Virus record (IMG/VR): IMGVR_UViG_3300027807_000003
Location: 1-64,000 of that record
Strand: one strand, 5' to 3'
Length of the DNA: 64,000 nucleotides
From: a virus
Taxonomy: Duplodnaviria; Caudoviricetes
Part shown: piece by piece, positions 852 to 53,998 of the stretch
Position numbering within the stretch: position 1 is the first letter of the stretch
How the letters are laid out: every line of letters begins with the position of its first letter
Made by a program: the position numbers and the translations under genes
The notes under the pieces: model-generated
The model's database searches: none
What the model saw: only the letters and a program-made list of their open reading frames with translations
What the model was told of the DNA's origin: nothing

Positions 852-1013
852 TTTTACGATTAAATCTGGGACATCTGAGGGATCTACAGAGTCCTTTTTA
901 GTTAATGCTTCTGGTTCCTCGAAGGTGACATAGGTAGGCTCGATAAACCGTAGGTAGTCTAACTCCTGCTGCTCCTCCGGTGTTGTTTCTGTAATTAGTT
1001 CTATGGGGTTCAA
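822..1013 (-). CDS. 63-aa ORF, probable N-terminal leader of the MuF gene (frameshift at A9 tract 847-855)
   Basis: ATG overlaps the portal stop (ATGA); ends shortly after GTA AAA AAA AAC. Confidence 0.6.
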   Translation of the reverse strand: MNPIELITETTPEEQQELDYLRFIEPTYVTFEEPEALTKKDSVDPSDVPDLIVKKNSPSSPKG

Positions 1014-11476: not shown

Positions 11477-12010
11477 ATGAGGTACACCATGTCTAAAACA
11501 GTCAGAGAACGGGAATTAGAAAATCTTGTAGTACAGTTGCAAGATGATATAAAGCAGTACAAAGACTGTATAACCCTGATGCTCAGGGGAATACAAAATA
11601 TAGATGAGGAAGTCAAAAACAAGTTTGGGTTTGGGCCTAAAATGAACAGCCCATCTAAACTACAGGAAATTAGCCGTAGAATAAGCGAGACAGATAAAGT
11701 AATTTCTACCTTTATAGAGGTAGATACTCAGGATTTACCACCAGGCCTAGAGCCGGAGCTAGAGCCAGAGCTAGAGCCAGAGCTAGAGCCAGAGCCAGAG
11801 CCAGAGCCAGAGCTAGAGCTAGAGCTAGAGCCGGAGCTAGAGCCGGAGCTAGAGCCAGAGCCAGAGCTAGAGCTAGAGCCAGAGCCAGAGCTAGAGCCGG
11901 AGCTAGAGCCAGAGCCAGAGCCAGAGCTAGAGCCAGAGCTAGAACCTAAAAAAACTCGGTACCTGCATCCTGATGAGGCCGTCGGTTCCAGACGGCATTG
12001 GAGGAAATAA
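11477..12010 (+). CDS. Hypothetical protein with Glu-Pro/Glu-Leu repeat (start may be ATG 11489)
   Basis: Coiled coil followed by an EPEL tract. Confidence 0.75.
   Translation: MRYTMSKTVRERELENLVVQLQDDIKQYKDCITLMLRGIQNIDEEVKNKFGFGPKMNSPSKLQEISRRISETDKVISTFIEVDTQDLPPGLEPELEPELEPELEPEPEPEPELELELEPELEPELEPEPELELEPEPELEPELEPEPEPELEPELEPKKTRYLHPDEAVGSRRHWRK
11747..11946 (+). repeat. Hexamer tandem repeat (GAGCTA/GAGCCA/GAGCCG) coding the EPEL tract
   Basis: Directly visible. Confidence 0.95.
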
Positions 12011-32097: not shown

Positions 32098-35000
32098 ATG
32101 TTTGCAATCACCACAGCGATCGCTCAATCACTGCTGTCCGCTACACCAAAACAAAGATGGGAGAATAACAAAAAAGCTATAGAATCCCTCAAGCTTGGGG
32201 GGAATATAGCTGATTTAGCTTTATTTAATGGTTGGGGTTCCATCCCCGAAGTATTTAGCTTAAATCCTGAAAAAGGATGGGCGGCTAATGCTCAAGCAGA
32301 GCTAAAGGTACTTTTAGGTGAAGAGGGGTATAACAGTGCTGCCGCAAGTATTCTCAACGCTCACTACACCTCCCCCGAAGTTATCTCAGCTATGTGGAGA
32401 ATGGTTGAGCGATTAGGTTTTGCTGGTGGCAGAGTTCTAGAACCAAGCTGTGGAACAGGGATGTTCTTTGGCTTGATGCCTGAAGATATGAGGGAAAGAT
32501 CTAAGTTGTTCGGCGTGGAAATAGACCCCATACCAGCACAGATCGCCCAAGCTTTGTACCCCAAGTCACGCATATATAATTATGCGTTCCAAGATGTAAA
32601 ATACCCTGATGGGTATTTTGATCTAATTATTGGTAATGTGCCTTTTGGGTCTTATGGTGTGCATGACCCTAAATATAATTTCTTAAATACAGGTATTCAT
32701 AATTATTTTCTAGCCAAATCTTCTGATTTAGTTCGCATTGGTGGGCTAGTTTGTATTCTTACCTCTAACTACACCTTAGATGCTCGTGGTTCCCAAGATT
32801 TCCGGGAATGGTTAGGTGGTAGACAAAAAATGAAATTGTTAGCGGCACTTCACCTGCCCATTGGAATATTCAAGCAAATATCCAGAACAGAGGTCAGCCC
32901 ACTGCTGCTGATATTCCAGAAACTTGCACTTAGCGAGGGAACTAACTCTAAAGATTGGGCAGGGACTAAAGAAGTTTTGATCAAGCCCCATGAATGGAGC
33001 GATGATAACGACTCACCACAGGTAGAAGCTGACCTTAATCAGTGGTTTGTAGGTGAATTCCAAGGTAGACGCTTAGACTACGGATATAGTCAGCTTGCTA
33101 AATCCACCCCCTACTGGGCAACGAAGAAAGGATACGATGACCCCCACAAATTGCTGGGAAGACCAGGGGTGAATAAGCTTTACGGGAATGGATTTGCTCT
33201 GTACGAAGATGGGAGAGACGTAATTGCTGCCCTTGATGGATTCCCCCTACCTGCTGTCTACCAACCTGCGGAAGTAATTCAGGAAGTGCTACTAGTCCCT
33301 CCATCGCTCTTATCCGTGAAGGACGGATCACTATGCCTTCACGAGGGGAAAATCTACCAGCGGGTAGGTGGGAGTTTGCAGTATACAAATGTGGAACAGC
33401 TAAGGGTGAAAGCCTTCTGGCAGTTACGGGAAGTTTTGCTACAAACCATTGAGGCTCAACAGTCTGGTGACGATGACACCCTGCTACAGTGCCAAGCTGA
33501 TTTAGCCACAGAATACCGCCACTTTACCAAGGAATGGGGTCTAGTCAACAGTAAAGAAAATATCAGTAAGCTAGGTGTTGACCCTAATTACTTCTTGGTG
33601 CGATCGCTAGAAAAGTCTGATAAATCTTTAGCTGATATCTTCTACAAGCGAGTATGTCGCACTTACTCTGTGGGTGAAGTGGATAATTCCAAGGATGCCC
33701 TAATTCACTCACTCAACTCCAAAGGTGTACTCGATCTAGAGTTCATGTCACAAATCAGTAATATTGACAAAAATGAACTAGTTAGACAGCTAGATGCTGA
33801 AGATGTGATTTACTGGAATCCCACAGATACCCAGTGGGAGTTAAAGGCAGATTACCTCAGTGGTAATATTCGCCAAAAACTAGAAGCTGCGAAAGCTGCC
33901 GAAATCACCAAAAATATTCAAGCACTAGAAAAAGTCCTGCCCTTGGCTATGCTTCCCGATGCCCCAGATCATGTTAAGTTCCTTTGCTTGGATAACTTAG
34001 GAGTGAAATGGGATCAGCTATCAGATGATGAGCGTGACAAGATTCTGGGTAAGAAAATCTACGTCACCATTGGAACAAGCTGGATCAAACCTGATATCTA
34101 CACTCAATTTGCTAGAGAAGTTCTGAATATTAAGGTGAAAATAACCCACACAGTTGCTGCTAATACCTCATTTTGGAGTGTAGATGGGCAAAACACAGAT
34201 AAGCAGCAGTTTGGTACAGAACATTTAAGCAGTACACAAATTCTGTCTAGGGGATTAAACCAGCAAGATCCAAAAGTGATAATCTATAACACTGATGGTA
34301 GTGGGGTTAATTACTCACTTTCTGCTGAAGCGACAGAGGAAGCTAGGGGTAAGTTAACTATCATCAAAAACGCCTTCAAGGAATGGATTTGGGGCGATCA
34401 GCAGAGATGCATTGAACTGTGTACCTACTACAACACCCACATTAATGTTTACGCCGAAAGGAAGTTTGATGGTAGTTATCTACATTTACCAGGGTCTAAT
34501 CCTAGTATCAAACTCAACCCTTGGCAGTTGAGCGCGATCGCTCGTATTCTCAACAATCAACGAGTGATGCTTGCTCATGATGTAGGATTTGGTAAAACAT
34601 TCATCATGATCACCGCTGTTATGGAGTGTCGGCGATTGGGGTTAGCCAGAAAACCAATACTAGTAGTGCAAAAGGGCAACGTCGCTCAGGTAGTGAACGA
34701 CTTTAAGCTACTTTATCCCTTGGCTAATTTACTAGTCCCTGACAAGTTAGATGCTGGGGGACGGAAATTATTTACTGCTTCTATTCTCACGGGTGACTTT
34801 GATTGTGCAATTGTCACCCACCCCCAGTTTTTCACCTTATCGCTCTCAGAAAACTACCAAGTAGCGTTCTTAAAAGAACAGGTAAACATCCTGACAGAAT
34901 TGATCAAAGATGTAGACGACCGGGGAACTACTAAACATCTTCAGCGCCAAATTAGAAATATTGAAAATCGCATCGAGAAGGTAACTGCTTCTCACCGCAA

Positions 35001-37323
35001 AGATAACCATATTGAGTTTGACGGGCTAACTGATTTTCTGTTAGTTGATGAAATCCAAGCATGGAAAAACTTGGAAGTTATCACCAAAATGTACAACGTG
35101 CGTGGCTTACCCAGTGGCGGATCTCAGAGAGCGATCGACTCTTGGATGAAAGCTTTGGTCGTACTGGGTGATTTAGTTGGTTCTGCCAACAAAGTTAAAG
35201 GTAAGTTAGTGGGAGCAACAGGTACAATCCTGAGTAACTCAATGGCTGAGTTATTTACTTGGATGCGAATGTTTCAGTTACCAGAACTCAAGCGATTAGG
35301 GATTGAGAACTTTGACGAGTGGGCGAGTATGTTCGCTGAACCAACAGCAACCGCCGAAATAACGGCCGGAGGAAAGGTGAGAGTTATTACCCGCTTTAGG
35401 GAATTTCACAACCTTCAAGCATTACGAGGGGTGATGTCACAATTTTTAGATTTAGTGACAAATAAAACCACAAACAACGGGTTAAAACGCCCTGATGCCG
35501 AATTTATTGATGTTGTTACCCCACCTAGTGATACTCAACTTGAGTTTTTACGGGAAGCTTTGAGCAGGGCTGAAGCGATATCTAAGGGTATGGTTCCCCC
35601 TGATCAAGATAATATGCTGAGTGTCACGTCTGATTTAGTTAAGTGTTCCCTCAGTCCCAAGCTAATCGGCTATAACGAGGAAGCCCTAGATAGCAAAGTG
35701 CATGAATGTATCTGGAACGTGTGGCAAATATGGCAGGCAACCACACCGATCAAAGGTACGCAGTTAATATTTAGCGATGGTGGTACACCTAAACCAGACA
35801 AGTATAATGTGTACCAATATATCAAAAATATGCTCATAGCTTTGGGTATACCCGATCGCCAAATCGCTTTTATTCATGATTATGATGGGCAAACCAAGCG
35901 GGCTAAGTTGTACAGGATGATTGAATCTGGGGAGATTCGCATCATCCTCGGTAGCACAGAAAAACTCGGAACTGGTTGTAATGTCCATCAGCGAGGGATA
36001 TGGGCAGCACACCACCTTGATGCACCTTGGCGTCCTGCCGACTTAATCCAACGGGAAGGGCGATCAATCCGCCAAGGTAATGGACAGCTAATTGGCAAAA
36101 TCCTCACTAAAACATGGGTATTCCGCTATGTAGTGGAACGACTAGACGCACTCCGCTGGCAAACACTCCATACCAAGCAGCAGGCGTTTACTCAGTTCTT
36201 GGATGGGGTAGAGCTAGACTCAATGGAAGACGTAGGCTCAGTGGATGCCTACTCCTACGCTCAAGTAAAATCCTTGGCCACTGGGAACCCCCTGCTTATA
36301 GAGGAAGCCAATCTACGAAACCAGCTAAACGCCCTAATCATTCAACAACGGGCGCATGCTCGTCAACAGCTAGGGATTGAGTACACCCTGACCGATTGGC
36401 AACGACGGGTTGAAGATACCCAAGCACGGCTAAAATTCCTCAAGGATGATTTACGCCTTATCCACAATATTAATGATGTATCTAATACCGAAGTAGCCGA
36501 AATAAATATCGCTGTCACAGACTTCTTGGAAAACCCGTTGTATGAAAATACCTACCTTGGGGATTATCGTGGTCTAGAGGTATATGCTAAAAAATGGCAG
36601 TCAGGGGCTATTGATGCATCCCTCAAAGGAAACCTAACTTACTCGTTACCTTGGTCTTACGGCAAAGATAGACCACTGATCAAACTAAGCAAAGTAAACC
36701 CCGCTGGTAGCTTTAATAGCTTAATTGAGGAACTAAAATTCTTCCAGCAAATCTTAGAGAGTAACCTAGAGACAGCAAAAACCGAGTACGATCGCGCCAA
36801 ATCAATTAAGGGACAAGAGTTTCCCCGACTAGAAGAACTCAACAGTATTAAGCAGCGATTACAAGAAATTGATTTACTCTTAGCCGAGACAGCGATCATA
36901 GTTGAGGAAGAAGCTAAATCTAGTAAGGCTAATTCTGATGATGAAGAAGAGAACCACAGATATTATGATTTTGATGACAAATCAACCGTAGGAAATTGCG
37001 ATATCGACCCTGCGATCGCACAACATTTACTAGAAAGAGAACCGGTAGAAGAATGGCTAAAAGAGATATCAGAAATAGTTAGCAAATATTCAGGATTTGC
37101 TGAGAAAATTGAGCCAGACGATTTACCTGAATTAGAGCTAACCTCTATATCATCAAAACAAGCTGCTAAGAGGAATAGAGCTAAAAAGGTAGGTAAAATA
37201 GAACCCAATTTTAAACAACTACAACTAATAGTGGAACCCGAAGAACTAGACCCTGTGCTAGAATTATCTAAGGCGATAAATGGGATACTTGAATTATTCG
37301 ATTATCGTCAAGAAAGTTGTTAG
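32098..37323 (+). CDS. DarB-like N6-adenine methyltransferase / SNF2-type helicase fusion
   Basis: NAHYT, LEPSCGTG, GNVPF; YLSGNIRQKL; HDVGFGKT, VDE, ATGT.LSNS, HHLDAPWRP, QREGRSIRQGN, KSLATGNP. Confidence 0.9.
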   Translation: MFAITTAIAQSLLSATPKQRWENNKKAIESLKLGGNIADLALFNGWGSIPEVFSLNPEKGWAANAQAELKVLLGEEGYNSAAASILNAHYTSPEVISAMWRMVERLGFAGGRVLEPSCGTGMFFGLMPEDMRERSKLFGVEIDPIPAQIAQALYPKSRIYNYAFQDVKYPDGYFDLIIGNVPFGSYGVHDPKYNFLNTGIHNYFLAKSSDLVRIGGLVCILTSNYTLDARGSQDFREWLGGRQKMKLLAALHLPIGIFKQISRTEVSPLLLIFQKLALSEGTNSKDWAGTKEVLIKPHEWSDDNDSPQVEADLNQWFVGEFQGRRLDYGYSQLAKSTPYWATKKGYDDPHKLLGRPGVNKLYGNGFALYEDGRDVIAALDGFPLPAVYQPAEVIQEVLLVPPSLLSVKDGSLCLHEGKIYQRVGGSLQYTNVEQLRVKAFWQLREVLLQTIEAQQSGDDDTLLQCQADLATEYRHFTKEWGLVNSKENISKLGVDPNYFLVRSLEKSDKSLADIFYKRVCRTYSVGEVDNSKDALIHSLNSKGVLDLEFMSQISNIDKNELVRQLDAEDVIYWNPTDTQWELKADYLSGNIRQKLEAAKAAEITKNIQALEKVLPLAMLPDAPDHVKFLCLDNLGVKWDQLSDDERDKILGKKIYVTIGTSWIKPDIYTQFAREVLNIKVKITHTVAANTSFWSVDGQNTDKQQFGTEHLSSTQILSRGLNQQDPKVIIYNTDGSGVNYSLSAEATEEARGKLTIIKNAFKEWIWGDQQRCIELCTYYNTHINVYAERKFDGSYLHLPGSNPSIKLNPWQLSAIARILNNQRVMLAHDVGFGKTFIMITAVMECRRLGLARKPILVVQKGNVAQVVNDFKLLYPLANLLVPDKLDAGGRKLFTASILTGDFDCAIVTHPQFFTLSLSENYQVAFLKEQVNILTELIKDVDDRGTTKHLQRQIRNIENRIEKVTASHRKDNHIEFDGLTDFLLVDEIQAWKNLEVITKMYNVRGLPSGGSQRAIDSWMKALVVLGDLVGSANKVKGKLVGATGTILSNSMAELFTWMRMFQLPELKRLGIENFDEWASMFAEPTATAEITAGGKVRVITRFREFHNLQALRGVMSQFLDLVTNKTTNNGLKRPDAEFIDVVTPPSDTQLEFLREALSRAEAISKGMVPPDQDNMLSVTSDLVKCSLSPKLIGYNEEALDSKVHECIWNVWQIWQATTPIKGTQLIFSDGGTPKPDKYNVYQYIKNMLIALGIPDRQIAFIHDYDGQTKRAKLYRMIESGEIRIILGSTEKLGTGCNVHQRGIWAAHHLDAPWRPADLIQREGRSIRQGNGQLIGKILTKTWVFRYVVERLDALRWQTLHTKQQAFTQFLDGVELDSMEDVGSVDAYSYAQVKSLATGNPLLIEEANLRNQLNALIIQQRAHARQQLGIEYTLTDWQRRVEDTQARLKFLKDDLRLIHNINDVSNTEVAEINIAVTDFLENPLYENTYLGDYRGLEVYAKKWQSGAIDASLKGNLTYSLPWSYGKDRPLIKLSKVNPAGSFNSLIEELKFFQQILESNLETAKTEYDRAKSIKGQEFPRLEELNSIKQRLQEIDLLLAETAIIVEEEAKSSKANSDDEEENHRYYDFDDKSTVGNCDIDPAIAQHLLEREPVEEWLKEISEIVSKYSGFAEKIEPDDLPELELTSISSKQAAKRNRAKKVGKIEPNFKQLQLIVEPEELDPVLELSKAINGILELFDYRQESC

Positions 37324-37436: not shown

Positions 37437-38054
37437 ATGAGATTAGGTAACTACAAAGTAGAAGTAAACGGCGGGCAAGAATCCCAAGAAGGTTACGTGC
37501 TTTTCACTTTAGGAAATCGTGAAGAAAAAGCAACATTCACTATCAACGTCACCAACTTTGGTACAACTGAATGTGATGCAGAGATTAAATTAAATAATTC
37601 TCTAGTTGGGGTCTGGAGGGTAGGACCTGGGGAAACCTACTATATCACCAGGCCTGCTAACAACACAGGGAAATTTACTGTGGGGTTCCGAGATTCGGTT
37701 GTTGGCGCAAAACTAGGTTCACATCAAATTGATAGGGAAGATAGCGGGGTAATTACCGTTATATTCACACCTAACAAAAAAGATGTCCCAAGTATTTATA
37801 GCAAAGGTGTTGATCTTGAAGTAGCTCCCCTTACTAGAAGCCTTACCAAAGGTAGTAAAGGCGTGGATTCAGCCGTCATCGGTCTTTCTGGCACTAGTAA
37901 TCAGAAATTCCGAGAAGTGGGGCCTTTGAGCGATCCTGACTATGCAAAGCAGGTCACAATCAACTTACGATTAGTTGTGTCTGATGCTTCTGATGCTGAT
38001 GACGACATTAGACCGATCACCCCGCTAAGTAATTTAGTACCTCCAGCAATTTAG
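37437..38054 (+). CDS. Hypothetical beta-rich protein
   Basis: 205-aa ORF, AAGGAG RBS. Confidence 0.75.
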   Translation: MRLGNYKVEVNGGQESQEGYVLFTLGNREEKATFTINVTNFGTTECDAEIKLNNSLVGVWRVGPGETYYITRPANNTGKFTVGFRDSVVGAKLGSHQIDREDSGVITVIFTPNKKDVPSIYSKGVDLEVAPLTRSLTKGSKGVDSAVIGLSGTSNQKFREVGPLSDPDYAKQVTINLRLVVSDASDADDDIRPITPLSNLVPPAI

Positions 38055-38135
38055 TAAATCAGGTCAGAAAACCCCCGGATTCATCCTTGGGGTTTTCTGG
38101 CACACATCAACCAAGTTAATTCAAAGAAGGGGAAA

Positions 38136-38240
38136 ATGAAAATGAGCAAGATTAAAGAAGCACTCTCCTTGGACACTCAAGAAGTACGGAATATAGTCAG
38201 AAACCCCACGGATGAATCCGGGGGCTTGAAAAAGTCCTAA
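38136..38240 (+). pseudogene. Truncated 5' copy of gene 38509-38973, interrupted by the omegaRNA
   Basis: MSKIKEALSLDTQEVRNIV versus MSKVKEALSLDTQEVQNIV. Confidence 0.8.
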
Positions 38241-38427
38241 TCTGACCCAACTCACAGTACTTCGCGTACTACGTTATGGGCAAGAGTTAAAGACCTACCA
38301 GGGGATGCGTAGCTAGTCCCGTGCTCTAGAACCGGACGATTAAACATCTTTAAAGGGGTTAAGGAAGTGTCGTCTGGAGAGTACCGACCCATAACATTGT
38401 CAAAGCTCACATTACCCCGAAAGGGAG
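38196..38427 (+). ncRNA. HEARO / IscB omegaRNA scaffold without iscB
   Basis: GTCAGAAACCCC...TCTGAC first stem; CTACGTT; GGGATGCGTAGCTAGTCCC; GCTCT; TTAAACA; GTTATGGG/CCCATAAC pairing; ACATTGTCAAAGCTCACATTAC. Confidence 0.85.
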
Positions 38428-38508
38428 TTTGGTGAGTACCAAGACTTGGTACTCACATATCATACTTATTCTCGCAGAAACCAAGTTAGTTCAAAGAAGA
38501 AGGGAAAA

Positions 38509-38973
38509 ATGAGCAAAGTTAAAGAAGCACTCTCCTTAGACACTCAAGAAGTGCAGAATATAGTCAACTCTCTCAACAGAGAGCGTCCAAAAAACTTAAT
38601 TAAGCAGTATCAGAATGATCTCGCCGAATGGGTCATCCCAAAGTTTCCTCATTTGGGGACTCAAGCGATCGCGGACTCCTTGGCTACTGACCCCCTACCC
38701 GCCTTTAAGGAGGTAGTGAAGAGTATGTCTTTGCTGGAATTACAGGAAGTAATAGAGTACGAAACTCCAACTGGCATCGGACAATACATAGCCTCCGGAA
38801 TCGTTAATGCAGCTGACTTCCTGACACTAGGTTTGGTGGGGAAAGCTATGTACGGGCTGCTAGAGTGGTATTTTGGATTCAAGGTAATTAAGATCTCTAG
38901 TAAAAAGCTTGAGCCACTGAAGAGAGCATTGGTCTACATAGCTCTCCTAGAACTGGTAGGAGAGAATAAATAG
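38509..38973 (+). CDS. Hypothetical protein with a hydrophobic segment
   Basis: AAGGG RBS, ACCAAGTTAG leader. Confidence 0.7.
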   Translation: MSKVKEALSLDTQEVQNIVNSLNRERPKNLIKQYQNDLAEWVIPKFPHLGTQAIADSLATDPLPAFKEVVKSMSLLELQEVIEYETPTGIGQYIASGIVNAADFLTLGLVGKAMYGLLEWYFGFKVIKISSKKLEPLKRALVYIALLELVGENK

Positions 38974-39033
38974 CAGTTCAGGTCACACATATCACACATA
39001 ACCAAGTTAATTCAGTTAATTCAAAGGAAAATC

Positions 39034-39654
39034 ATGCTTTATCTTGTTACTTCCAGACCTGAAGTAATAGAAGAGATACGTAAGTCTCATCCTTGTAATA
39101 TTATCGCAGTCGGCGAACCCATAGCAGGGATTGAGCCAAGGGTAGAACATGGGGATGTCTTCTACTGGAAAAGTGGTAAAAAAGACATCCAGATTGATGA
39201 AATGCCTTTCCCGGTACATTCTTCCCGTCTCGCTTGGGAAGATGGGCCACAAGTCAAATACAAATCGCAATACCCGTGTATTGCAGCATCCAAGCTTACT
39301 GTGGAAAATTATGTCACTGCTGCTTGGATGCAATTGACAAGAGCAGAGATTGTCGAAAACCTTGATCGCCTGAGAGCGATCGCCTACTTCTCCCAAGGGA
39401 ACATAATCCCACCTCCAGAGCTACACTACCTTGAAAGCTTTGCGTTGGGGGTACTGGAATTCTTGGAGCGAGAACAACAGGAGGTCGAAGAACACCGAAG
39501 ACAACTAGAGCATTGGTCTGCCAGCCTTCCGGGTCTGGGAGCAACTGATGCAAGAATCGAAACAAACGAGGAGCTAGTTAACTCGGGATATTTCGCAGTT
39601 AGGACCGATTTTTTGGTGGAAGCTTGCACAGGTTATAGGGGATGGGAGGTTTAA
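39034..39654 (+). CDS. Degenerate paralogue of the DHH-like protein 22828-23871
   Basis: Shares YLVT.R, IQIDEMP.P, AAW.QL, L.AIAY; lacks DHH and DAD. Confidence 0.75.
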   Translation: MLYLVTSRPEVIEEIRKSHPCNIIAVGEPIAGIEPRVEHGDVFYWKSGKKDIQIDEMPFPVHSSRLAWEDGPQVKYKSQYPCIAASKLTVENYVTAAWMQLTRAEIVENLDRLRAIAYFSQGNIIPPPELHYLESFALGVLEFLEREQQEVEEHRRQLEHWSASLPGLGATDARIETNEELVNSGYFAVRTDFLVEACTGYRGWEV

Positions 39655-39656
39655 TC

Positions 39657-39911
39657 ATGGTCAAACTGAAAGATAAGTTTTGTGCAAATGTGGATCAATT
39701 CGTTGATTCACTCGGTATTAATTCAATTGGCAAAGATGAATTAGAGAGAAGGGCGATCGCGTGGTTGCAAGACACCACCGATTGGGAAAGTGTCTTCTAC
39801 TCTGAGAAAGAGTGCGAAGAGTATATTAATGAAATCCTCAAGCAGGAATTCATTAATTACTTGCAAGAAGAGTTCAAATATCTACTTACATTTACCATAG
39901 GTGCAAGATGA
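39657..39911 (+). CDS. Hypothetical protein
   Basis: GGAGG RBS. Confidence 0.65.
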   Translation: MVKLKDKFCANVDQFVDSLGINSIGKDELERRAIAWLQDTTDWESVFYSEKECEEYINEILKQEFINYLQEEFKYLLTFTIGAR

Positions 39912-40345
39912 CTGAAGTTAATCATCCCAAAAGATTGGTAGAACTCTATCGCGCCTTCTACCGTGCAGATAAGCAGTATGATCCAACTGCAAGGAAGGCA
40001 GTACAACCAGTCGCCGAGGGAATTGAGATAATAATTGAAGCTGATCCCAGTTTCAGAAACCCCGACACCTTGACTGATGCTGTCGCGGGTAGATTAGGTA
40101 GGCTAATGGCTCAAATTCACACCTCAACAGGTGCGTTGGGGCGGTGGGTTATAGAAGACTCCGCACAAGAGAGGGAAGCTATTCTAGCTTTTGCCTCGTA
40201 TTTGGTAAAAGATGTTTTTTATGGAGCATTCCAAGGAAGATTGGATTTGTTCCACGGAAGGCAAGCTGATTTGCTTCGTAATACCTGCGAGCTAATTTAC
40301 CGCCAAATACAGGACAAAGAGAATAGAGAATACGGAGAACAATAA
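39908..40345 (+). CDS. cas11d: Stand-alone Cas11d homologue (C-terminal domain of type I-D Cas10d)
   Basis: HPKRLVELYRAFYRA, EADPS, GRWVI, EREAILAFASY, GRQ..LLRNTCELIYR..DKEN; 145 aa. Confidence 0.8.
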   Translation: MTEVNHPKRLVELYRAFYRADKQYDPTARKAVQPVAEGIEIIIEADPSFRNPDTLTDAVAGRLGRLMAQIHTSTGALGRWVIEDSAQEREAILAFASYLVKDVFYGAFQGRLDLFHGRQADLLRNTCELIYRQIQDKENREYGEQ

Positions 40346-40414
40346 CTAACACTTGTAGGCGATCGCACTTTCCCCTGTGGAGGGCGATCGCATCAATAAC
40401 AAATAGGAGGAGAA

Positions 40415-40753
40415 ATGGTAAATTCATACGGATTCAATGGTGCGATTCCCAAAGGGGCGATCGCTGCTAAATACAGTATCTACAATGGAGAATTCACTGG
40501 AAAGTTTTATTTTCCGCAAGAACTAATACCTGAGAACGATGAAAACTATTCTGTGGAAGCCCTGTATGGAGTATCTGTTAAAGATGCTCCTGCCTTGCAA
40601 AGCAGGAATGATAATTTTAGAGGGGTGTTTCTGATGCCAGAGCAGGCGATCAGCTACTCCGATGAATGGGCAGCAGAATATGGCAATAAATATATTGTCC
40701 AAGATCTGCTCAATAATGTCGTTATTCACGAATCTAGTGTCAATAACAAATAG
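40415..40753 (+). CDS. Hypothetical protein, paralogous to the C-terminus of 41970-42812
   Basis: IPKGAIA...KFYFP...VE.LY.V...A.SY.D...LNN shared. Confidence 0.75.
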   Translation: MVNSYGFNGAIPKGAIAAKYSIYNGEFTGKFYFPQELIPENDENYSVEALYGVSVKDAPALQSRNDNFRGVFLMPEQAISYSDEWAAEYGNKYIVQDLLNNVVIHESSVNNK

Positions 40754-40767
40754 GAGGAGAGATTAAC

Positions 40768-41562
40768 ATGACAAACGAAGAAATTCTACAAGAATTTAGA
40801 CTTCTAGCCTCCACACTGAAATATATATCAGGCTCCAGCGAACTGCGAGTTTGTGCATACCAATATCCGGATCTACAGTACAGTAGGTTCGAGATAATCA
40901 AACCTGATGCGATCACAGTTTCAACTGTTAACAAAATTAAGAAACTACAACACGTAGTAAACCTTAATCTGAAAGACCGAACAGGGTATGACTGGTATCT
41001 CGGTTTTGATGTGGTGGATGAGTTAATTGAACTCGCAGATCGCTCTAAGTTTAAGGTACTAGATCTGAGGGAATTACCCGCCTTGGATATCAGGGGGAAA
41101 GAAGAGGTATCTGTCTGGGATTCTTTGCTATATGGTGGTGATTGGACATCAGAGCCATACAAAAGTGAGTCCATTTGGGATGGCACTGTTAGTAAGCTGA
41201 CAGATCAGCAAATGGATTTTGTCTGGGAATCATTCCAGCGCCTACTTGATCACCATGTAGGTAAAGATCATGATGTATTGTTCAGAACAGGGTGGAGGGA
41301 AATTTATTCCTACTCAGATACGAAATTCGTAGCTGTAATCTGCCAAGGAATGAAAAGTAAAGATTTTTTTGATTTGGGAGAAAGATGGGCAAAAATGCAG
41401 CCTGAGCACTGTATCCTCTCTGAACCCAATGCTTTTAGCGAACTAGTAATAGACGGAGACAGTGTGAAAACACTACTCTATCTGCGTAAAGCAGACTATT
41501 ACAGTACCGAAGAAAGAGAATTTTTACCAAAGATAGAGATTAGGAGGATGTATGACAGTTAG
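40768..41562 (+). CDS. Hypothetical protein
   Basis: AGGAGG RBS. Confidence 0.75.
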   Translation: MTNEEILQEFRLLASTLKYISGSSELRVCAYQYPDLQYSRFEIIKPDAITVSTVNKIKKLQHVVNLNLKDRTGYDWYLGFDVVDELIELADRSKFKVLDLRELPALDIRGKEEVSVWDSLLYGGDWTSEPYKSESIWDGTVSKLTDQQMDFVWESFQRLLDHHVGKDHDVLFRTGWREIYSYSDTKFVAVICQGMKSKDFFDLGERWAKMQPEHCILSEPNAFSELVIDGDSVKTLLYLRKADYYSTEEREFLPKIEIRRMYDS

Positions 41563-41758
41563 AGCAAAAGCATTGGTAGCCCTGAATATTAAGAAAAATC
41601 GATTAGTTTGGGCTGGACGGGGCGAACAACCTAACGCCGATTTCCCACTCGGATCAGAGATTGGGGAAGTAGTTATAGGTAGTTCTGGTGAAAACTATGT
41701 ACAGATCAAAAACGAGAGGGGGACGTTCTTTGTGTCCCATGCTGATTACATCTGCTAG
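41552..41758 (+). CDS. Hypothetical protein
   Basis: AGGAGG RBS, overlaps the previous gene. Confidence 0.6.
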   Translation: MTVRAKALVALNIKKNRLVWAGRGEQPNADFPLGSEIGEVVIGSSGENYVQIKNERGTFFVSHADYIC

Positions 41759-41969
41759 ATGCACTAATTAGATGTTCATGCGATCGCTCCTCATGGGTTT
41801 ACGGATTGGGAGCGATCGCCCTACTAACCAATCTTGCCTGCACGAGTAGGGATTAATCCCTCTGTTCAGAACTCCTTGTAAGGGTCAAATTCTTACCAAT
41901 AAAAGGTTCTAAGACTTTTGAAGGGGATCTACTTGTAAGGGTTTTTTAAATTAAGGAGAGTCACAAATC

Positions 41970-42812
41970 ATGCTAAGATCATACAGCAGAGCAATTGACT
42001 TCAAGGTCGTCTGGGAAGCTACTAAAGCTCTTAGAAGTAATGGCTTCTATGTAGTCATAGGGAAAATGTTCGACTGCGATTCAGAAATTGCAGCATTAGC
42101 CATCTACTCAACACAGACCTATGTATTCGCAGGTTTTGTAAGGTTCGACCAAGGATGCCAGATGTACGAAGATGAAAAACGCAATGTACCTAATGTATTT
42201 TTCGTCTCTAATAAATATGTTCAGCAAGTCAGGGAGGTTCTTTCCTATGGCGAAATACAAGAGAATTTCGATTTTAGCCAATTCCCGCAAAGCTACTACC
42301 CAGACATTTTAGACACAACACTGCCTGAAGTATACAGATTCGACTTGGCACAGATTTTTAACAGAATTTTGTCTCCTGAACAGGTCAGGAAAGAGTATGA
42401 AGAGTATTTGGAAGAAGAGCGGTTGAAGGAGGAAACCAAGAGACAGATAAAAGGAAACTCAGTGGAGTATATAGAGGATCTGGGAGTGTTAAAAAGTAAG
42501 CATTCTTCTAGGGATACTAAAGACATTAAAATCCCTAAAGGTGCGATCGCGGTTGAGTATAACACAGCAAATAAACGGGTATGTAAATTCTATTTTCCTG
42601 GAGACAAGATACCTGAATCCATTGGTATGTTTCGGGTAGAGGGGTTATACCAAGTCACGACGTTTATTCAGTGCGAAGATGAGGAAGATCCTGAAAGGAT
42701 ATTTTTATACCCACAAGATGCTGTCAGCTATTGTGATAGCTTGAGTGATGAAAGTGGTAAGAAATGTTTCGTCAGAAATATGTTGAATAACAACTATATT
42801 TACGAAACGTGA
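41970..42812 (+). CDS. Hypothetical two-domain protein
   Basis: AAGGAG RBS; paralogous C-terminal domain. Confidence 0.75.
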   Translation: MLRSYSRAIDFKVVWEATKALRSNGFYVVIGKMFDCDSEIAALAIYSTQTYVFAGFVRFDQGCQMYEDEKRNVPNVFFVSNKYVQQVREVLSYGEIQENFDFSQFPQSYYPDILDTTLPEVYRFDLAQIFNRILSPEQVRKEYEEYLEEERLKEETKRQIKGNSVEYIEDLGVLKSKHSSRDTKDIKIPKGAIAVEYNTANKRVCKFYFPGDKIPESIGMFRVEGLYQVTTFIQCEDEEDPERIFLYPQDAVSYCDSLSDESGKKCFVRNMLNNNYIYET

Positions 42813-51586: not shown

Positions 51587-53998
51587 GTGAAATCAGTTGA
51601 TCGCTTAGTAATGGACAGGGCTAGAAAAGCACTCCCATTATTAAATAAAGTTAAAAGTATTAACAAGAATTCACCCCAAATAGGAAAAGCGATTAAATCT
51701 TTCGCCGACAAGCTATGGAAACCACAAGCAGGACCGCAGACTCAGGCATTTAACCATCAGGCAGATGAACTGTTATTTGGGGGAGCAGCAGGAGGCGGGA
51801 AAGCTCAACCATGCTACTCCATAGAGTGGGCGTTTGAGAATCTTAAATCATTTACGGTGGATCAATATAGTAGTGTACTGTCTCAAATACCACAAGAGAT
51901 TAGAAACAAAGACAGCAAAATACTAATGGGTGATGGACGCTGGAAATCGCTCGCTGAGATTGTAGTTGGCGATCGCATCATGAATCCCAGTGGTAGAACT
52001 CAAGAAGTATTACAGGTACATGAGAGAGGAATACTACACCTTTACCGGATTACCTTTGCAGATAAGACCACAGTGGAGTGCAGTGGTGATCATCTGTGGG
52101 GTTTTTGGAACATCAGGCCTCCTACTGTAAAAACTATTGACTGGGGTGTTAGCTACATTTATAACACAAGAGTTAAAAATACGGAGTGGTTGTTTGAACA
52201 GTTTAACCAGTGGGGGAAATTTGCTATTCCCATCAATGATGCACTTAATTATACTGATAAATCCTTAAATAGTAGATGGGAAATCGCACGAAGATTGTTT
52301 GATGCTCATGGGGAAATCACTCAAGACAATGTTTTTATTGGGACTTTTGGTGACGATTGTGACTTTGTGACTGACTTAGTGCGATCGCTGGGTTACATGG
52401 TTAGACACGAAGAAATCGACAGCGATCGCACTAAGCTTGTTGTCGAAGGTAATGATAAATGGAAGTTATTTAGCCTTCCCTGTAAAGTAGAAGCAGCGAA
52501 AGAACATGAGCCAAATATCTGGGTGGGTAAAAGAATTGAGAATATCGAGGAAATTGGCTCAACCTACTGTAGATGCATAACAGTTTCTAACCCAAATGGT
52601 CTGTACATAACCGACGGATACAACGTCACCCACAATTCAGCCCTGCTACTGATACTCGCTGGTCTATCCCATACTCAGTCAATCATTTTCCGCCGTGAAT
52701 ACTCTCGCCTAAAAGATATCATCGAGAAAAGCCGTAGGATGTTTGGCGAATTAGGGAAAAGCGCCAGGTATAACAGTACTGATAAGATTTGGCGCTTACC
52801 CAGTGGAAAGACAATTGAATTTGGAGCGATTCAGTACGACCAAGATATGGAGAACTATCGCGGTCGTGAGCATGACTTAAAGGGATGGGACGAATTAACC
52901 GAGTTTACCCAAGAAATATACGAATTCGTCAATACTTGGAACCGATCGCCCAACCAAGTCCAACGCTGTAGAATCGTCGCTACTTGTAATCCACCATCCA
53001 CAGAAGAGGGGCAGTGGATTATTGATTACTGGGGACCTTGGTTAAAGGAAGATTACGAAGGTGTACCAGCACTACCTGGGGAAATTAGATGGTTTGCCCG
53101 TATTGGTGACAAAGACGTAGAACTGGAGTCAGGCGATCGCTTTTCCCACACCGATGAAGATGGCAGAACCGAGCAAATTATTCCTCGTTCCCGCTCATTT
53201 ATCCCAGCTAGGCTAGAAGATAATGCCTACCTGATGAACACCAACTACCGGGGGGCATTGCAACGATTACCTGAGCCACTGCGATCGCAGCTACTCTATG
53301 GTAGTTTCAAGAAAATAAAGACCAAAGACCATCCGTGGCAGGTTATTCCCTCGGAATGGTACGATCAAGCGGTAGCCAGATGGACTGAAAACCCACCCGC
53401 ACCACAATCGCATTTAGGTGTAGACGTAGCCAGAGGTGGTGAATGTAATTCAGTTATTGCTAGCAGATACTACAACTGGTTAGCCCCACTAATTGTCATT
53501 CCAGGGACGGAAACCCCAGATGGTGACACACTGGCGATGGAAATATTAAAACATCGCCGCCATAATAAGGTAGAAATCAGGATTGACGTACTTGGTGTAG
53601 GTTATTCTCCCTATGATTCACTCAATCGCTTGAGAGTAAAAGAAGTAGTAGCGATCAATGGTAATGCGAGCACAGGGGAGAAAAAAGATAAATCAGGAGT
53701 ACTAGAATTCTTCAACCTGCGATCGTTTATGTATTGGCATTTTAGGGAAGCACTAGACCCTAAAAACCATTACGACATCATGTTACCGAATGATCCTCGA
53801 CTGCGAAGGGAGATATTAGCTCCGCGATGGGAGTGCACAAAAGGTAGAAGTGATTTTGGGATTATTCGGGTTGAGAGTAAAGAAGATATAATTAAGCGTA
53901 TTGGTGGTGGGAGTCCTGATAGAGCAGACGCTACGGTATATGCGTTCGCTGATTTAGAACTTGATGTTACTGATAATTATGATTGGTTGAGGGGATGA
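51587..53998 (+). CDS. terL: Terminase large subunit containing an intein
   Basis: GGAAGGGK|S Walker A, WDELTEF, TCNP, FIPARLEDN, GVDVARGG, SPDRADA. Confidence 0.93.
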   Translation: MKSVDRLVMDRARKALPLLNKVKSINKNSPQIGKAIKSFADKLWKPQAGPQTQAFNHQADELLFGGAAGGGKAQPCYSIEWAFENLKSFTVDQYSSVLSQIPQEIRNKDSKILMGDGRWKSLAEIVVGDRIMNPSGRTQEVLQVHERGILHLYRITFADKTTVECSGDHLWGFWNIRPPTVKTIDWGVSYIYNTRVKNTEWLFEQFNQWGKFAIPINDALNYTDKSLNSRWEIARRLFDAHGEITQDNVFIGTFGDDCDFVTDLVRSLGYMVRHEEIDSDRTKLVVEGNDKWKLFSLPCKVEAAKEHEPNIWVGKRIENIEEIGSTYCRCITVSNPNGLYITDGYNVTHNSALLLILAGLSHTQSIIFRREYSRLKDIIEKSRRMFGELGKSARYNSTDKIWRLPSGKTIEFGAIQYDQDMENYRGREHDLKGWDELTEFTQEIYEFVNTWNRSPNQVQRCRIVATCNPPSTEEGQWIIDYWGPWLKEDYEGVPALPGEIRWFARIGDKDVELESGDRFSHTDEDGRTEQIIPRSRSFIPARLEDNAYLMNTNYRGALQRLPEPLRSQLLYGSFKKIKTKDHPWQVIPSEWYDQAVARWTENPPAPQSHLGVDVARGGECNSVIASRYYNWLAPLIVIPGTETPDGDTLAMEILKHRRHNKVEIRIDVLGVGYSPYDSLNRLRVKEVVAINGNASTGEKKDKSGVLEFFNLRSFMYWHFREALDPKNHYDIMLPNDPRLRREILAPRWECTKGRSDFGIIRVESKEDIIKRIGGGSPDRADATVYAFADLELDVTDNYDWLRG
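51803..52636 (+). mobile_element. Class 3 intein (278 aa) in the TerL P-loop with a degenerate LAGLIDADG remnant
   Basis: Starts AQP, block B DHLW, block F CRCITV, ends VTHN/S. Confidence 0.88.

What the first reader, a model, noticed from the sequence alone, without database searches (positions are those of the whole stretch)
39908..40345. Stand-alone phage Cas11d homologue: candidate type I-D anti-CRISPR decoy
Seen: a 145-aa ORF with the motifs of the Cas10d C-terminal domain, among small early genes, with no cas operon or array in the window. Established: Cas11d is normally made by internal translation within cas10d and is a Cascade subunit; type I-D is common in cyanobacteria; a phage Cas11 homologue (AcrIB4) inhibits type I-B. 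Inference: a dominant-negative subunit that poisons I-D Cascade. I know of no described Cas11d-derived Acr.
Basis: partly seen in the sequence, partly recalled or inferred. Interest (0 to 1): 0.88.

Follow-up and report, generated by a model that had tools for sequence, protein, structure and literature searches.

The report
Cyanophage stand-alone Cas11d, candidate anti-CRISPR
A cyanobacterial virus carries its own diverged copy of the small subunit of the host's type I-D CRISPR complex, most likely as a faulty part that jams that defence, but this has not been tested.

Summary
ORF 39908-40345 (+, 145 aa) is a full-length, stand-alone homologue of Cas11d, the C-terminal domain of Cas10d (NCBIfam TIGR03174 E 3.6e-22; PADLOC Cas10_Id E 6.5e-36; PDB 7SBA Cas11d E 5e-5; AF2 model pLDDT 91.5, Foldseek TM 0.82). 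The window is the first 64 kb of a 134-kb virus record with portal, capsid and terminase genes. Its closest isolate is Aphanizomenon phage CL131. The record has no Csc2, Csc1, Cas3-core or Cas1 match.

The protein belongs to a strongly supported clade (bootstrap 100) that holds only orphan Cas11d-like proteins. The clade is separate from all full-length Cas10d. Its members occur on 6 virus contigs, counting this record, and one Nostoc MAG contig. Three of seven contexts have a DarB-like gene nearby. In two, a small probable winged-helix gene overlaps the 3' end.

Best reading (about 0.5): a Cas-derived anti-CRISPR that enters or titrates type I-D Cascade, like AcrIB4 for type I-B. No assay exists. 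No I-D spacer against this phage was found. A Cascade-binding prediction gave no verdict.

Outside the window the phage has a type V-like mini-array beside a TnpB/Cas12f-like gene.

The parts
39908..40345 (+). Stand-alone Cas11d-like gene (145 aa), the finding itself
   Evidence: ORF. TIGR03174 E 3.6e-22. PADLOC Cas10_Id E 6.5e-36. 7sba_J Cas11d E 5e-5. AF2 pLDDT 91.5. Foldseek 7sba_J TM 0.82. Lies in the orphan-only clade, 100/99 support.
39642..39911 (+). Upstream 89-aa ORF of unknown function. Its TGA stop overlaps the ATG of the Cas11d-like gene (ATGA), suggesting one transcription unit with coupled translation.
   Evidence: No Pfam or PHROGs family. A CRISPR spacer seen in an RNA-library contig matches 39839-39878 inside it.
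39034..39654 (+). 206-aa ORF of unknown function. It overlaps the start of the 89-aa ORF by 13 bases, on the same strand.
   Evidence: No Pfam or PHROGs family.
32098..37323 (+). DarB-like anti-restriction methylase/helicase (1741 aa), 2.6 kb upstream. It forms the anti-defence context.
   Evidence: phrog_10089 'DarB-like antirestriction' E 0. tblastn to Erwinia phage PEp14 'DarB-like antirestriction', 29.9% identity over 90% of the query. DarB-like genes also lie beside Cas11d-like genes in L008 and L047.

Best explanation
The gene encodes a phage-made copy of the type I-D Cascade small subunit. It has evolved apart from cellular cas10d and acts as an anti-CRISPR.

Proposed mechanism: it is expressed during infection and takes one or both of the two Cas11d positions in the minor filament. 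Those positions lie on the Cas7d backbone next to the Cas10d C-terminal domain. Alternatively it titrates those partners. Either way the complex no longer forms or holds a productive R-loop, or no longer passes on the rearrangement needed for Cas3' recruitment.

Shown here: homology, fold, native-like length, orphan status, phage location, separate clade, recurrence in virus contigs.

Inferred: expression, binding to Cascade, and inhibition.
For: (1) It is a complete Cas11d-fold protein whose ends match the native subunit.

(2) The record is a phage with portal, major head, protease and TerL PHROGs. TerL is 58.9% identical to Aphanizomenon phage vB_AphaS-CL131. The record has no Csc2, Csc1, Cas3-core or Cas1 match and only this one Cas10d match.

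(3) Phylogeny.
- In the careful IQ-TREE tree of 92 rows, a clade of 38 rows has support 100/99. It holds 20 solo forms, 13 with a novel N-terminal domain and 5 with a C-terminal extension.
- That clade holds none of the 42 full-length Cas10d rows.
- The query sits in a 10-row solo subclade with support 95/99 (quick tree of 116 rows agrees).
- This mirrors what is reported for AcrIB3 and AcrIB4.

(4) Clade members occur on IMG/VR contigs L057 (93 kb; 58% identical), L007/L044, L045 (208 kb), L046 and L047.

(5) Neighbourhood.
- DarB-like genes lie within 3 kb in 3 of 7 contexts examined: G000, L008, L047.
- In 2 of the 3 solo-type contexts with DNA (L057, L008), a roughly 90-aa gene overlaps the 3' end.
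- That gene has weak winged-helix signals: Rrf2 E 0.0064 and the BirA N-terminal domain E 0.0033. This is the acr-aca layout.

(6) The Nostoc MAG that carries the solo copy L008 also has a full 1134-aa Cas10d, only 43% identical to the solo copy.

(7) Residues near-invariant in cellular domains differ in the orphans. R69 becomes Q, V70 becomes I, and N121 becomes G or D. Several positions invariant only in cyanobacterial Cas10d also differ: K27, R85, R112.

(8) Literature.
- Cas11d is needed for a functional complex (10.1101/2020.04.18.045682, abstract passage).
- Two Cas11d copies sit in the minor filament (PMC9123187).
- Hosts of the related phage CL131 carry I-D and III-B systems with spacers against it (PMC6293099).

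(9) Cas7d is 75-90% identical across 13 cyanobacterial loci. One decoy could therefore fit many hosts.
Against: - There is no functional or binding data.
- In this phage the probable winged-helix gene is not adjacent. Its homologue lies at record 71174-71446 on the other strand.
- 0 of 791 spacers taken from I-D arrays in the fetched loci match the phage credibly; the best match is 19 of 20 bases.
- The one spacer seen against the phage is flanked by repeats unlike those I-D repeats. By my reading it has no GTN motif on either side. So I-D pressure on this phage is not shown.
- Most core residues are retained. The net-charge difference is small: query -2, solo clade mean +1.3, cyanobacterial Cas10d domains mean +2.3. 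The protein could therefore still be a working subunit.
- The diagnostic substitutions could not be mapped onto interfaces.
- The isolate CL131 lacks a homologue: no tblastn hit in 50,697 phage records.
Confidence: 0.5

Rival explanations
1. The Cas11d fold has been exapted for a job unrelated to type I-D Cascade. It could be a nucleic-acid- or protein-binding module used in phage replication, in the phage's own type V-like/TnpB-like system, or against another defence such as a type III complex.
For: - The clade has diversified into three architectures with extra domains of unknown fold.
- The phage carries its own non-I-D array beside a Cas12f1-like ORF.
- The only spacer seen against the phage is not I-D-like.
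- No I-D spacer hit was found.
Against: - The domain keeps high similarity to Cas10d C-termini over its full length: 41-49% identity to 28 full-length cyanobacterial Cas10d.
- The strongly conserved N-terminal helix motif is kept. That is most simply explained by keeping the same partners.
- The Cas12f1-like ORF and array lie 40 kb away.
Confidence: 0.22
2. It is a working Cas11d supplied by the phage to support or hijack host type I-D Cascade, for example against competing elements. On this reading it is a helper, not an inhibitor.
For: - Full-length domain with a native-like N-terminus and most core residues kept.
- Phages of this group carry CRISPR arrays.
Against: - The phage array's repeat is unlike the I-D repeats beside cas10d in the 22 fetched loci with an I-D-type array. 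The phage therefore offers no I-D guide.
- The host already makes Cas11d from cas10d.
- The orphan clade is long separated from cellular sequences.
- In the Listeria study the true Cas subunits did not affect immunity while the viral homologues did.
Confidence: 0.1
3. It is an inert remnant of a captured cas10d 3' end.
For: Orphan or broken cas10d pieces do exist: L038 has in-frame stops. L054 is a 189-aa C-terminal piece, 64.5% identical to a cellular Cas10d.
Against: - Intact ORFs of 140-148 aa recur in at least 8 distinct sequences at 51-59% identity to the query, with 46 invariant columns among the five aligned.
- The fold is predicted with confidence.
- Start overlap with the upstream ORF is retained.
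Confidence: 0.04

Closest known systems
AcrIB4 (Listeria; homologue of the Cas8b C-terminal 90 residues), with AcrIB3 (Cas5 homologue)
   Same: - A Cascade-subunit homologue encoded on a mobile element without its cas operon.
- It forms its own clade apart from true Cas proteins.
- The proposed action is assembly into a defective complex (passages of 10.1101/2023.06.24.545427).
   Different: - Different subtype (I-D, not I-B), different host phylum, and no sequence relationship tested or expected.
- Here the whole internally translated small subunit is copied.
- Relatives carry extra N- or C-terminal domains.
- Function is untested here.
Native Cas11d (7SBA chain J; internal translation product of Synechocystis cas10d)
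   Same: Same fold (TM 0.82), same length (145 against 146 aa), N-termini in register.
   Different: - 24% identity to 7sba_J.
- Encoded as its own gene in a phage, not inside cas10d.
- Lies outside all cellular Cas10d clades.
- Near-invariant R69 and N121 are replaced.
AcrID1 (SIRV3 gp02), the only type I-D anti-CRISPR named in the 2023 review
   Same: It would have the same target system.
   Different: - AcrID1 is an archaeal-virus protein unrelated to Cas proteins.
- It binds Cas10d as a dimer.
- Foldseek does not relate the model to it; the 6thh hit at rank 6 is its Cas10d chain, E 1.6.
Orphan viral cas genes of IMG/VR (358 loci in Katz et al.)
   Same: Same class of object and the same source database.
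   Different: The main text of the preprint does not mention Cas10d, Csc3, Cas11 or I-D: 0 occurrences each. Table S3 could not be opened, so this record or its relatives may already be listed there.

Membership tests
Cas11d / Cas10d C-terminal domain (TIGR03174 region 823-946) | Significant sequence match to the Cas10d C-terminal domain | tested here: met
   TIGR03174 E 3.6e-22, above the cut-off. PADLOC E 6.5e-36. 7sba_J E 5e-5.
Cas11d / Cas10d C-terminal domain (TIGR03174 region 823-946) | Cas11d helical-bundle fold | tested here: met
   AF2 pLDDT 91.5. Foldseek 7sba_J TM 0.82/0.81, rmsd 2.9.
Cas11d / Cas10d C-terminal domain (TIGR03174 region 823-946) | Made by internal translation within cas10d, inside a type I-D operon | tested here: not met
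   It is a separate 145-aa ORF. The record has no other Cas10d, Csc2, Csc1, Cas3-core or Cas1 match.
Cas11d / Cas10d C-terminal domain (TIGR03174 region 823-946) | Groups with cellular Cas10d sequences in a tree | tested here: not met
   It lies in a 38-row orphan-only clade with 100/99 support, holding none of the 42 full-length Cas10d rows.
Cas11d / Cas10d C-terminal domain (TIGR03174 region 823-946) | Subunit of Cascade (two copies in the minor filament) | not testable with these tools
   This needs purification or a structure.
Cas-derived anti-CRISPR (AcrIB3/AcrIB4 kind) | Cas-subunit homologue on a virus or mobile element without a cognate cas operon or array | tested here: met
   The array elsewhere in the record has a non-I-D repeat.
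Cas-derived anti-CRISPR (AcrIB3/AcrIB4 kind) | Own clade apart from bona fide Cas proteins | tested here: met
Cas-derived anti-CRISPR (AcrIB3/AcrIB4 kind) | Lies next to anti-defence genes or an HTH (aca-like) regulator | tested here: inconclusive
   - A DarB-like gene lies 2.6 kb upstream.
- No HTH was found among the 10 neighbours.
- A probable winged-helix gene overlaps the homologues in L057 and L008, but the domain signals are weak: E 0.0064 and 0.0033.
Cas-derived anti-CRISPR (AcrIB3/AcrIB4 kind) | Inhibits interference by the cognate CRISPR-Cas system | not testable with these tools
   This needs an interference assay.

The most novel reading that the evidence does not exclude
The gene is one member of an old, diversified family of type I-D Cascade poisons carried by cyanophages and other mobile elements. 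The family has three architectures: solo, with a novel N-terminal domain, and with a C-terminal extension. The Cas11d module docks onto the highly conserved Cas7d backbone. The added domains cap the minor filament or block Cas3' recruitment. These would be the first bacterial type I-D anti-CRISPRs, and possibly broad-range ones. Because I-D Cascade is structurally close to type III complexes, some members might also disturb type III effectors.
Probability: 0.3. Interest if true: 0.8.

Novelty: new variant of a known kind. Interest (0 to 1): 0.62.

Why it matters
The 2023 review read here names one type I-D inhibitor, from an archaeal virus. Type I-D is common in cyanobacteria, including bloom formers, and is also being developed as a genome editor (PMC8216271, seen as a search listing only).

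A Cas11d-derived inhibitor would:
- extend the 'viral cas gene as anti-CRISPR' principle to a small subunit that is normally hidden inside another gene;
- offer a natural off-switch for I-D tools;
- help explain how CL131-like cyanophages persist in hosts that carry spacers against them.

The family found here, with its three architectures, gives several independent candidates to test.

Tried and rejected
**Steps that led nowhere**
- Pfam and PHROGs gave nothing for the protein.
- The search for homologous proteins with 'longer' lengths found no full-length relative: 597 candidates, none scoring. That is a limit of the word index, because genome contigs gave 28 full-length Cas10d.
- Complex prediction with two copies of Cas7d (alignment A8) plus the phage protein (A3) gave no verdict: score 0.00 against a mark of 0.32, controls not run. 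This is neither support nor evidence against binding.
- The protein-atlas search gave no usable hit by features. The Atlas's own model is poor (pLDDT 0.51), so its structure rows mean nothing.

**The phage's own array**
- Rfam found no family for it, at the gathering threshold or at E <= 1.
- A 22-base part of its repeat was not found in other IMG/VR contigs.
- It was not found as an array in 401 sampled cyanobacterial genomes: 5 single hits at 3 mismatches, about as many as in the reversed-pattern control columns. It was absent from 4 named genomes.

**I-D targeting and other checks**
- 791 spacers from I-D arrays in the fetched loci gave no credible match to the phage.
- The repeat flanking the RNA-library spacer was not found in stored loci or in 41 genomes of the Nostoc MAG's family. 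Its CRISPR type stays unknown.
- Net charge and pI do not clearly separate orphans from cellular domains.
- hhalign found no similarity between the novel N-terminal domain and Cas11d (probability 0.2). The Foldseek alignment of the two-domain model to Cas10d beyond the Cas11d part has rmsd 21.9 and is not trusted.
- RNA-library contigs do not cover 39908-40345. No cover is no evidence, and DNA can be present in such libraries.
- The promoter and terminator scan was at chance level: 8 found against 6.5 expected, and 4 against 2.9.
- Supplements were closed, so Table S3 of Katz et al. and the tables of the CL131 paper were not seen.

**Rejected reading**
- 'Recent host capture'. The solo copy in the Nostoc MAG is only 43% identical to that MAG's own Cas10d.

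Full report
**1. The observation**

Window 39908-40345 (+) is an open frame of 145 aa. Its ATG overlaps the TGA of the preceding 89-aa ORF as ATGA. That ORF in turn overlaps a 206-aa ORF, all on the + strand.

The protein matches the C-terminal end of the type I-D large subunit:
- NCBIfam TIGR03174 (cas_Csc3): E 3.6e-22, 78.3 bits against a curated cut-off of 60, residues 6-132 on profile positions 823-945 of 946.
- Four PADLOC Cas10d models at E <= 2.2e-9, the best 6.5e-36.
- Pfam and PHROGs: nothing.

Among solved structures the best sequence match is chain J of 7SBA, deposited as Cas11d (146 aa), at E 5e-5. Query 5-134 aligns to chain 6-137. The phage protein therefore corresponds end to end to the natural small subunit, not to an arbitrary piece of Cas10d.

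An AlphaFold2 model built on 17 relatives is confident (pLDDT 91.5, pTM 0.88). Foldseek finds 7sba_J first (TM 0.82/0.81, rmsd 2.9), then the Cas10d chains of 7SBB and 7SBA. Everything else has E >= 0.8.

**2. What the window is**

The window is the first 64 kb of a 134,332-bp IMG/VR virus record, classed as linear and rated 100% complete by CheckV.

I made 150 ORF translations of 66 aa or more, covering the whole record. PHROGs finds among them a portal, major head protein, head maturation protease, large terminase, DnaB-like helicases, ribonucleotide reductase, ParB-like protein, several DNA methyltransferases and a DarB-like anti-restriction protein. TerL is at 51587-53995. A portal/minor-head fusion is at 1013-4795 on the minus strand.

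TerL is 58.9% identical over 98% of its length to Aphanizomenon phage vB_AphaS-CL131.

The octamer GCGATCGC occurs 191 times where about one is expected. I recall this as the HIP1 palindrome typical of cyanobacterial genomes. The host is therefore very probably a filamentous cyanobacterium.

DNA runs labelled moss metagenome hold 94% and 60% of the sampled words of 38000-42000. The best holder may be the source sample.

**3. Other cas genes**

TIGR03174 matches only this ORF in the record. Csc2/Cas7d, Csc1/Cas5d, cas3_core and cas1 give no match at E <= 1. A k-mer scan of the whole record finds no array in the window.

Outside the window there is one array, at record 82057-82900. It has ten good and about three decayed copies of a 36-nt repeat, spaced 71-76 nt with unique spacers. 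It lies next to a 626-aa ORF (79711-81591, minus strand) with a Cas12f1-like TNB domain (PF07282, E 2.3e-6, above the cut-off).

This is the layout reported for CL131: 10 spacers, 36-nt repeats, an adjacent TnpB-like gene, assigned to 'V-U2' (PMC6293099, passages).

The repeat is unlike the repeats beside cas10d in the 22 fetched loci that have an I-D-type array. Those all end in a GGGATTGAAAC-type motif. The phage array therefore says nothing for an I-D guide function.

**4. Relatives**

The word-indexed search finds four other proteins of 141-148 aa at 51-59% identity, out of 5 hits among 28 candidates. One is an NCBI entry from a Nostoc MAG annotated as Cas10d/Csc3.

A profile of the five (A2) was run against 1.84 billion cluster representatives. 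It gives 113 hits at E <= 1e-3, 79 at <= 1e-10 and 9 at <= 1e-30.

In genome contigs the profile finds 31 loci:

| Kind of locus | Number |
|---|---|
| C-terminus of a full-length Cas10d ORF, 1111-1199 aa (41-49% identical to the query) | 28 |
| Cut by a contig end (L018) | 1 |
| Pseudogene with in-frame stops (L038) | 1 |
| Stand-alone 148-aa gene (L008, the Nostoc MAG) | 1 |

Of 9 metagenome loci, 7 are full-length, one runs off its contig, and one (L054) is a 189-aa C-terminal piece 64.5% identical to a cellular Cas10d.

In IMG/VR:
- L057 (93,452-bp contig) encodes a 142-aa solo form, 58% identical to the query.
- A 270-300-aa family with a novel helical N-terminal domain plus the Cas11d domain occurs on four contigs of 27.5, 207.9, 5.1 and 37 kb.

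No hit was found in 50,697 deposited phage genomes.

**5. Phylogeny**

151 sequences matched the A2 profile. I kept the 117 whose match covers at least 115 of 142 profile positions.

I classed them by what lies outside the domain: 42 full-length Cas10d, 25 Cas10d fragments, 29 solo, 15 with a non-Cas10d N-terminal part, and 6 with a C-terminal extension.

The quick tree (116 rows, one duplicate dropped) shows a clade of 37 rows that holds only non-Cas10d forms, SH-aLRT 98.

For the careful tree (92 rows) I left out the 25 fragments and the duplicate and added L057. It gives:
- the orphan-only clade, now 38 rows (20 solo, 13 N-domain, 5 C-extension), with ultrafast bootstrap 100 and SH-aLRT 99;
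- the query's 10-row solo subclade at 95/99.

In the drawn quick tree its neighbour is the clade of cyanobacterial Cas10d C-termini; the careful tree was not drawn. The tool notes that the bootstrap had not fully settled and that 141 columns are few.

In the quick tree, nine further 'solo' rows sit outside the orphan clade: eight among full-length Cas10d clades and one (P0030) on its own branch. They may be gene-calling pieces that start at the natural internal Met. I do not count them as orphans.

**6. Neighbourhood**

Upstream at 32098-37323 lies a 1741-aa DarB-like methylase/helicase. DarB-like genes also lie within about 1-3 kb of the Cas11d-like gene in L008 and L047. That makes 3 of 7 contexts: G000, L008, L044, L045, L046, L047 and L057. 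L046 is a 5-kb fragment.

In L057 and L008 the stop region of the solo gene overlaps the ATG of a roughly 90-aa gene. Its family (A7) gives only weak DNA-binding signals:
- Rrf2, E 0.0064, below the cut-off;
- the winged-helix N-terminal domain of BirA, E 0.0033;
- a PHROG labelled recombinase, E 4e-4.

In the window's phage the homologue is 31 kb away on the other strand.

The ten ORFs around the gene have no Pfam family. Five of them have no PHROG either.

The Nostoc MAG that holds L008 also holds a full 1134-aa Cas10d on another contig. It is 43% identical to the solo copy. Binning errors cannot be excluded.

**7. What differs from cellular Cas11d domains**

I compared columns across 35 orphan sequences and 42 full-length Cas10d domains. 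Three positions are at least 80% conserved in cellular proteins and consistently different in orphans:
- R69 becomes Q;
- V70 becomes I;
- N121 becomes G (D in the query).

Several positions invariant in the cyanobacterial Cas10d set also differ: K27, N29, A30, D36, R85, R112 and A113. The query keeps R124, where most of its clade has E.

The N-terminal helix motif (L-x-x-L-Y-R-x-F-Y-R) and many core residues are shared.

Charge differs little. I could not map these positions to interfaces. The papers read give no residue-level contacts for Cas11d.

**8. Mechanism**

Established, from passages read:
- Cas11d starts at an internal Met of cas10d and is needed for a functional complex (10.1101/2020.04.18.045682).
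- The complex is Cas10d1:Cas7d7:Cas5d1:Cas11d2. The Cas10d C-terminus and two Cas11d form the minor filament.
- The small subunits shift on PAM recognition, in a way proposed to support R-loop stability and to open the non-target strand path (PMC9123187).

AcrIB3 and AcrIB4 are Cas5 and Cas8b-C-terminus homologues. They block target binding without preventing assembly, and AcrIB3 co-purifies with Cascade. The true Cas subunits had no such effect (10.1101/2023.06.24.545427).

By inference, the phage protein competes for the two Cas11d sites or titrates their partners. Cas7d is 75-90% identical among 13 cyanobacterial loci, so it offers a conserved docking surface.

I put this reading at about 0.5.

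**9. Evidence against, and rivals**
- No assay exists.
- No I-D spacer among 791 sampled hits the phage.
- The one spacer seen against the phage matches 39839-39878. It sits in a contig from an RNA library, between two repeat halves. Its repeats are unlike the I-D ones. By my reading of the flanks it has no GTN motif, the I-D PAM given in PMC10212523, on either side.
- CRISPR pressure on the phage is therefore shown, but I-D pressure is not.
- The rivals are an exapted module with another partner (0.22), a working helper subunit (0.10) and an inert remnant (0.04).

**10. Novelty**

Three literature searches found no paper describing a phage-encoded Cas11d or Cas10d-C-terminus homologue (about 8.4 million open papers and preprints).

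The 2023 review names AcrID1 as the only type I-D anti-CRISPR. Two cyanophage papers mention only predicted anti-CRISPRs of other kinds.

Katz et al. screened IMG/VR for orphan cas genes and list 358 in Table S3, which I could not open. The main text of the preprint does not mention Cas10d, Csc3, Cas11 or I-D. The object may therefore already sit unremarked in that table.

I class it as a new variant of a known kind, the Cas-derived anti-CRISPR candidate. It is new for type I-D, for cyanophages and for an internally translated small subunit, and it belongs to a family with three architectures.

**11. Verdict**

The gene is real, and the homology and fold are secure. The decoy function is plausible and supported by comparison, but it is unproven. 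Interest 0.62.

Noticed in passing
Outside the window: record 79711-82900 (L002:16715-18592 minus strand; L003:1057-1990): CRISPR-like array of ten good and about three decayed 36-nt repeats with unique spacers of 35-40 nt. It lies next to a 626-aa ORF with a Cas12f1-like TNB domain (PF07282, E 2.3e-6). This is the layout reported for phage CL131 ('V-U2'). The repeat was not found in 401 sampled cyanobacterial genomes or in other IMG/VR contigs.
   Followed up: partly
window 38196-38415 (+): Full-length HEARO RNA (Rfam RF02033, 130.7 bits, model 1-211 of 211), 1.5 kb upstream of the Cas11d-like gene. The record has no RRXRR (IscB-type) domain (PF14239, 0 matches). A promoter-like site ends at 38197. 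In four public runs this stretch has very high contig depth, with loose ends on both sides. It is therefore a multi-copy element of the community and is abundant in the RNA libraries. Why a phage carries a solitary copy is unexplained.
   Followed up: partly
window 39839-39878: A contig from a metatranscriptome library carries this 39-40-nt phage stretch between two halves of a 36-nt repeat, so it is a CRISPR spacer against this phage in a transcribed or co-sequenced array. The repeat is unlike the I-D repeats seen here. No GTN motif flanks the protospacer. The repeat was not found in 41 genomes of the Nostoc MAG's family.
   Followed up: partly
window 40415-40753 and 41970-42812: The 112-aa ORF just downstream of the Cas11d-like gene and the C-terminal 93 residues of the 280-aa ORF are paralogous (40% identity over 98 aa, E 2e-18). 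Neither has a Pfam family.
   Followed up: partly
L044:5707-6567, L045:7938-8771, L047:7944-8771, L046:16-609; proteins P0019, P0035, P0051, P0074, P0081: Two further architectures share the orphan Cas11d module. One is about 270-300 aa with a confident all-helical N-terminal domain of no recognised fold (AF2 pLDDT 90.3); it occurs on four IMG/VR contigs. The other is about 253-295 aa with a C-terminal extension. No Pfam family was found in the members tested (L044, L045, P0019, P0035, P0081).
   Followed up: partly
L057:5187-5468, L008:10434-10709, record 71174-71446 (minus strand): A conserved gene of about 90 aa with weak winged-helix signals overlaps the 3' end of the solo Cas11d-like gene in two other elements. 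In this phage it sits elsewhere. It is a candidate aca-like regulator.
   Followed up: partly
L054:9881-10450: A 189-aa orphan C-terminal piece of Cas10d, 64.5% identical to a cellular Cas10d. No upstream cas10d sequence is present in the 20-kb locus, which is a GC-rich (57%), HIP1-rich metagenome contig. It looks like a more recent, independent detachment of the same module.
   Followed up: no
L032:10481-11086 and the same position in 9 other type I-D loci: A conserved 201-aa ORF lies between cas10d and cas7d in 10 of the 29 cyanobacterial I-D loci searched (54-94% identity to the L032 copy; only a partial match in L037). Its function was not examined.
   Followed up: no
window 11747-11925, inside ORF 11477-12010: An imperfect short-period repeat (GAGCCA/GAGCTA units) lies within a coding frame. 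The k-mer scan picked it up as array-like, but it is not a CRISPR array.
   Followed up: no
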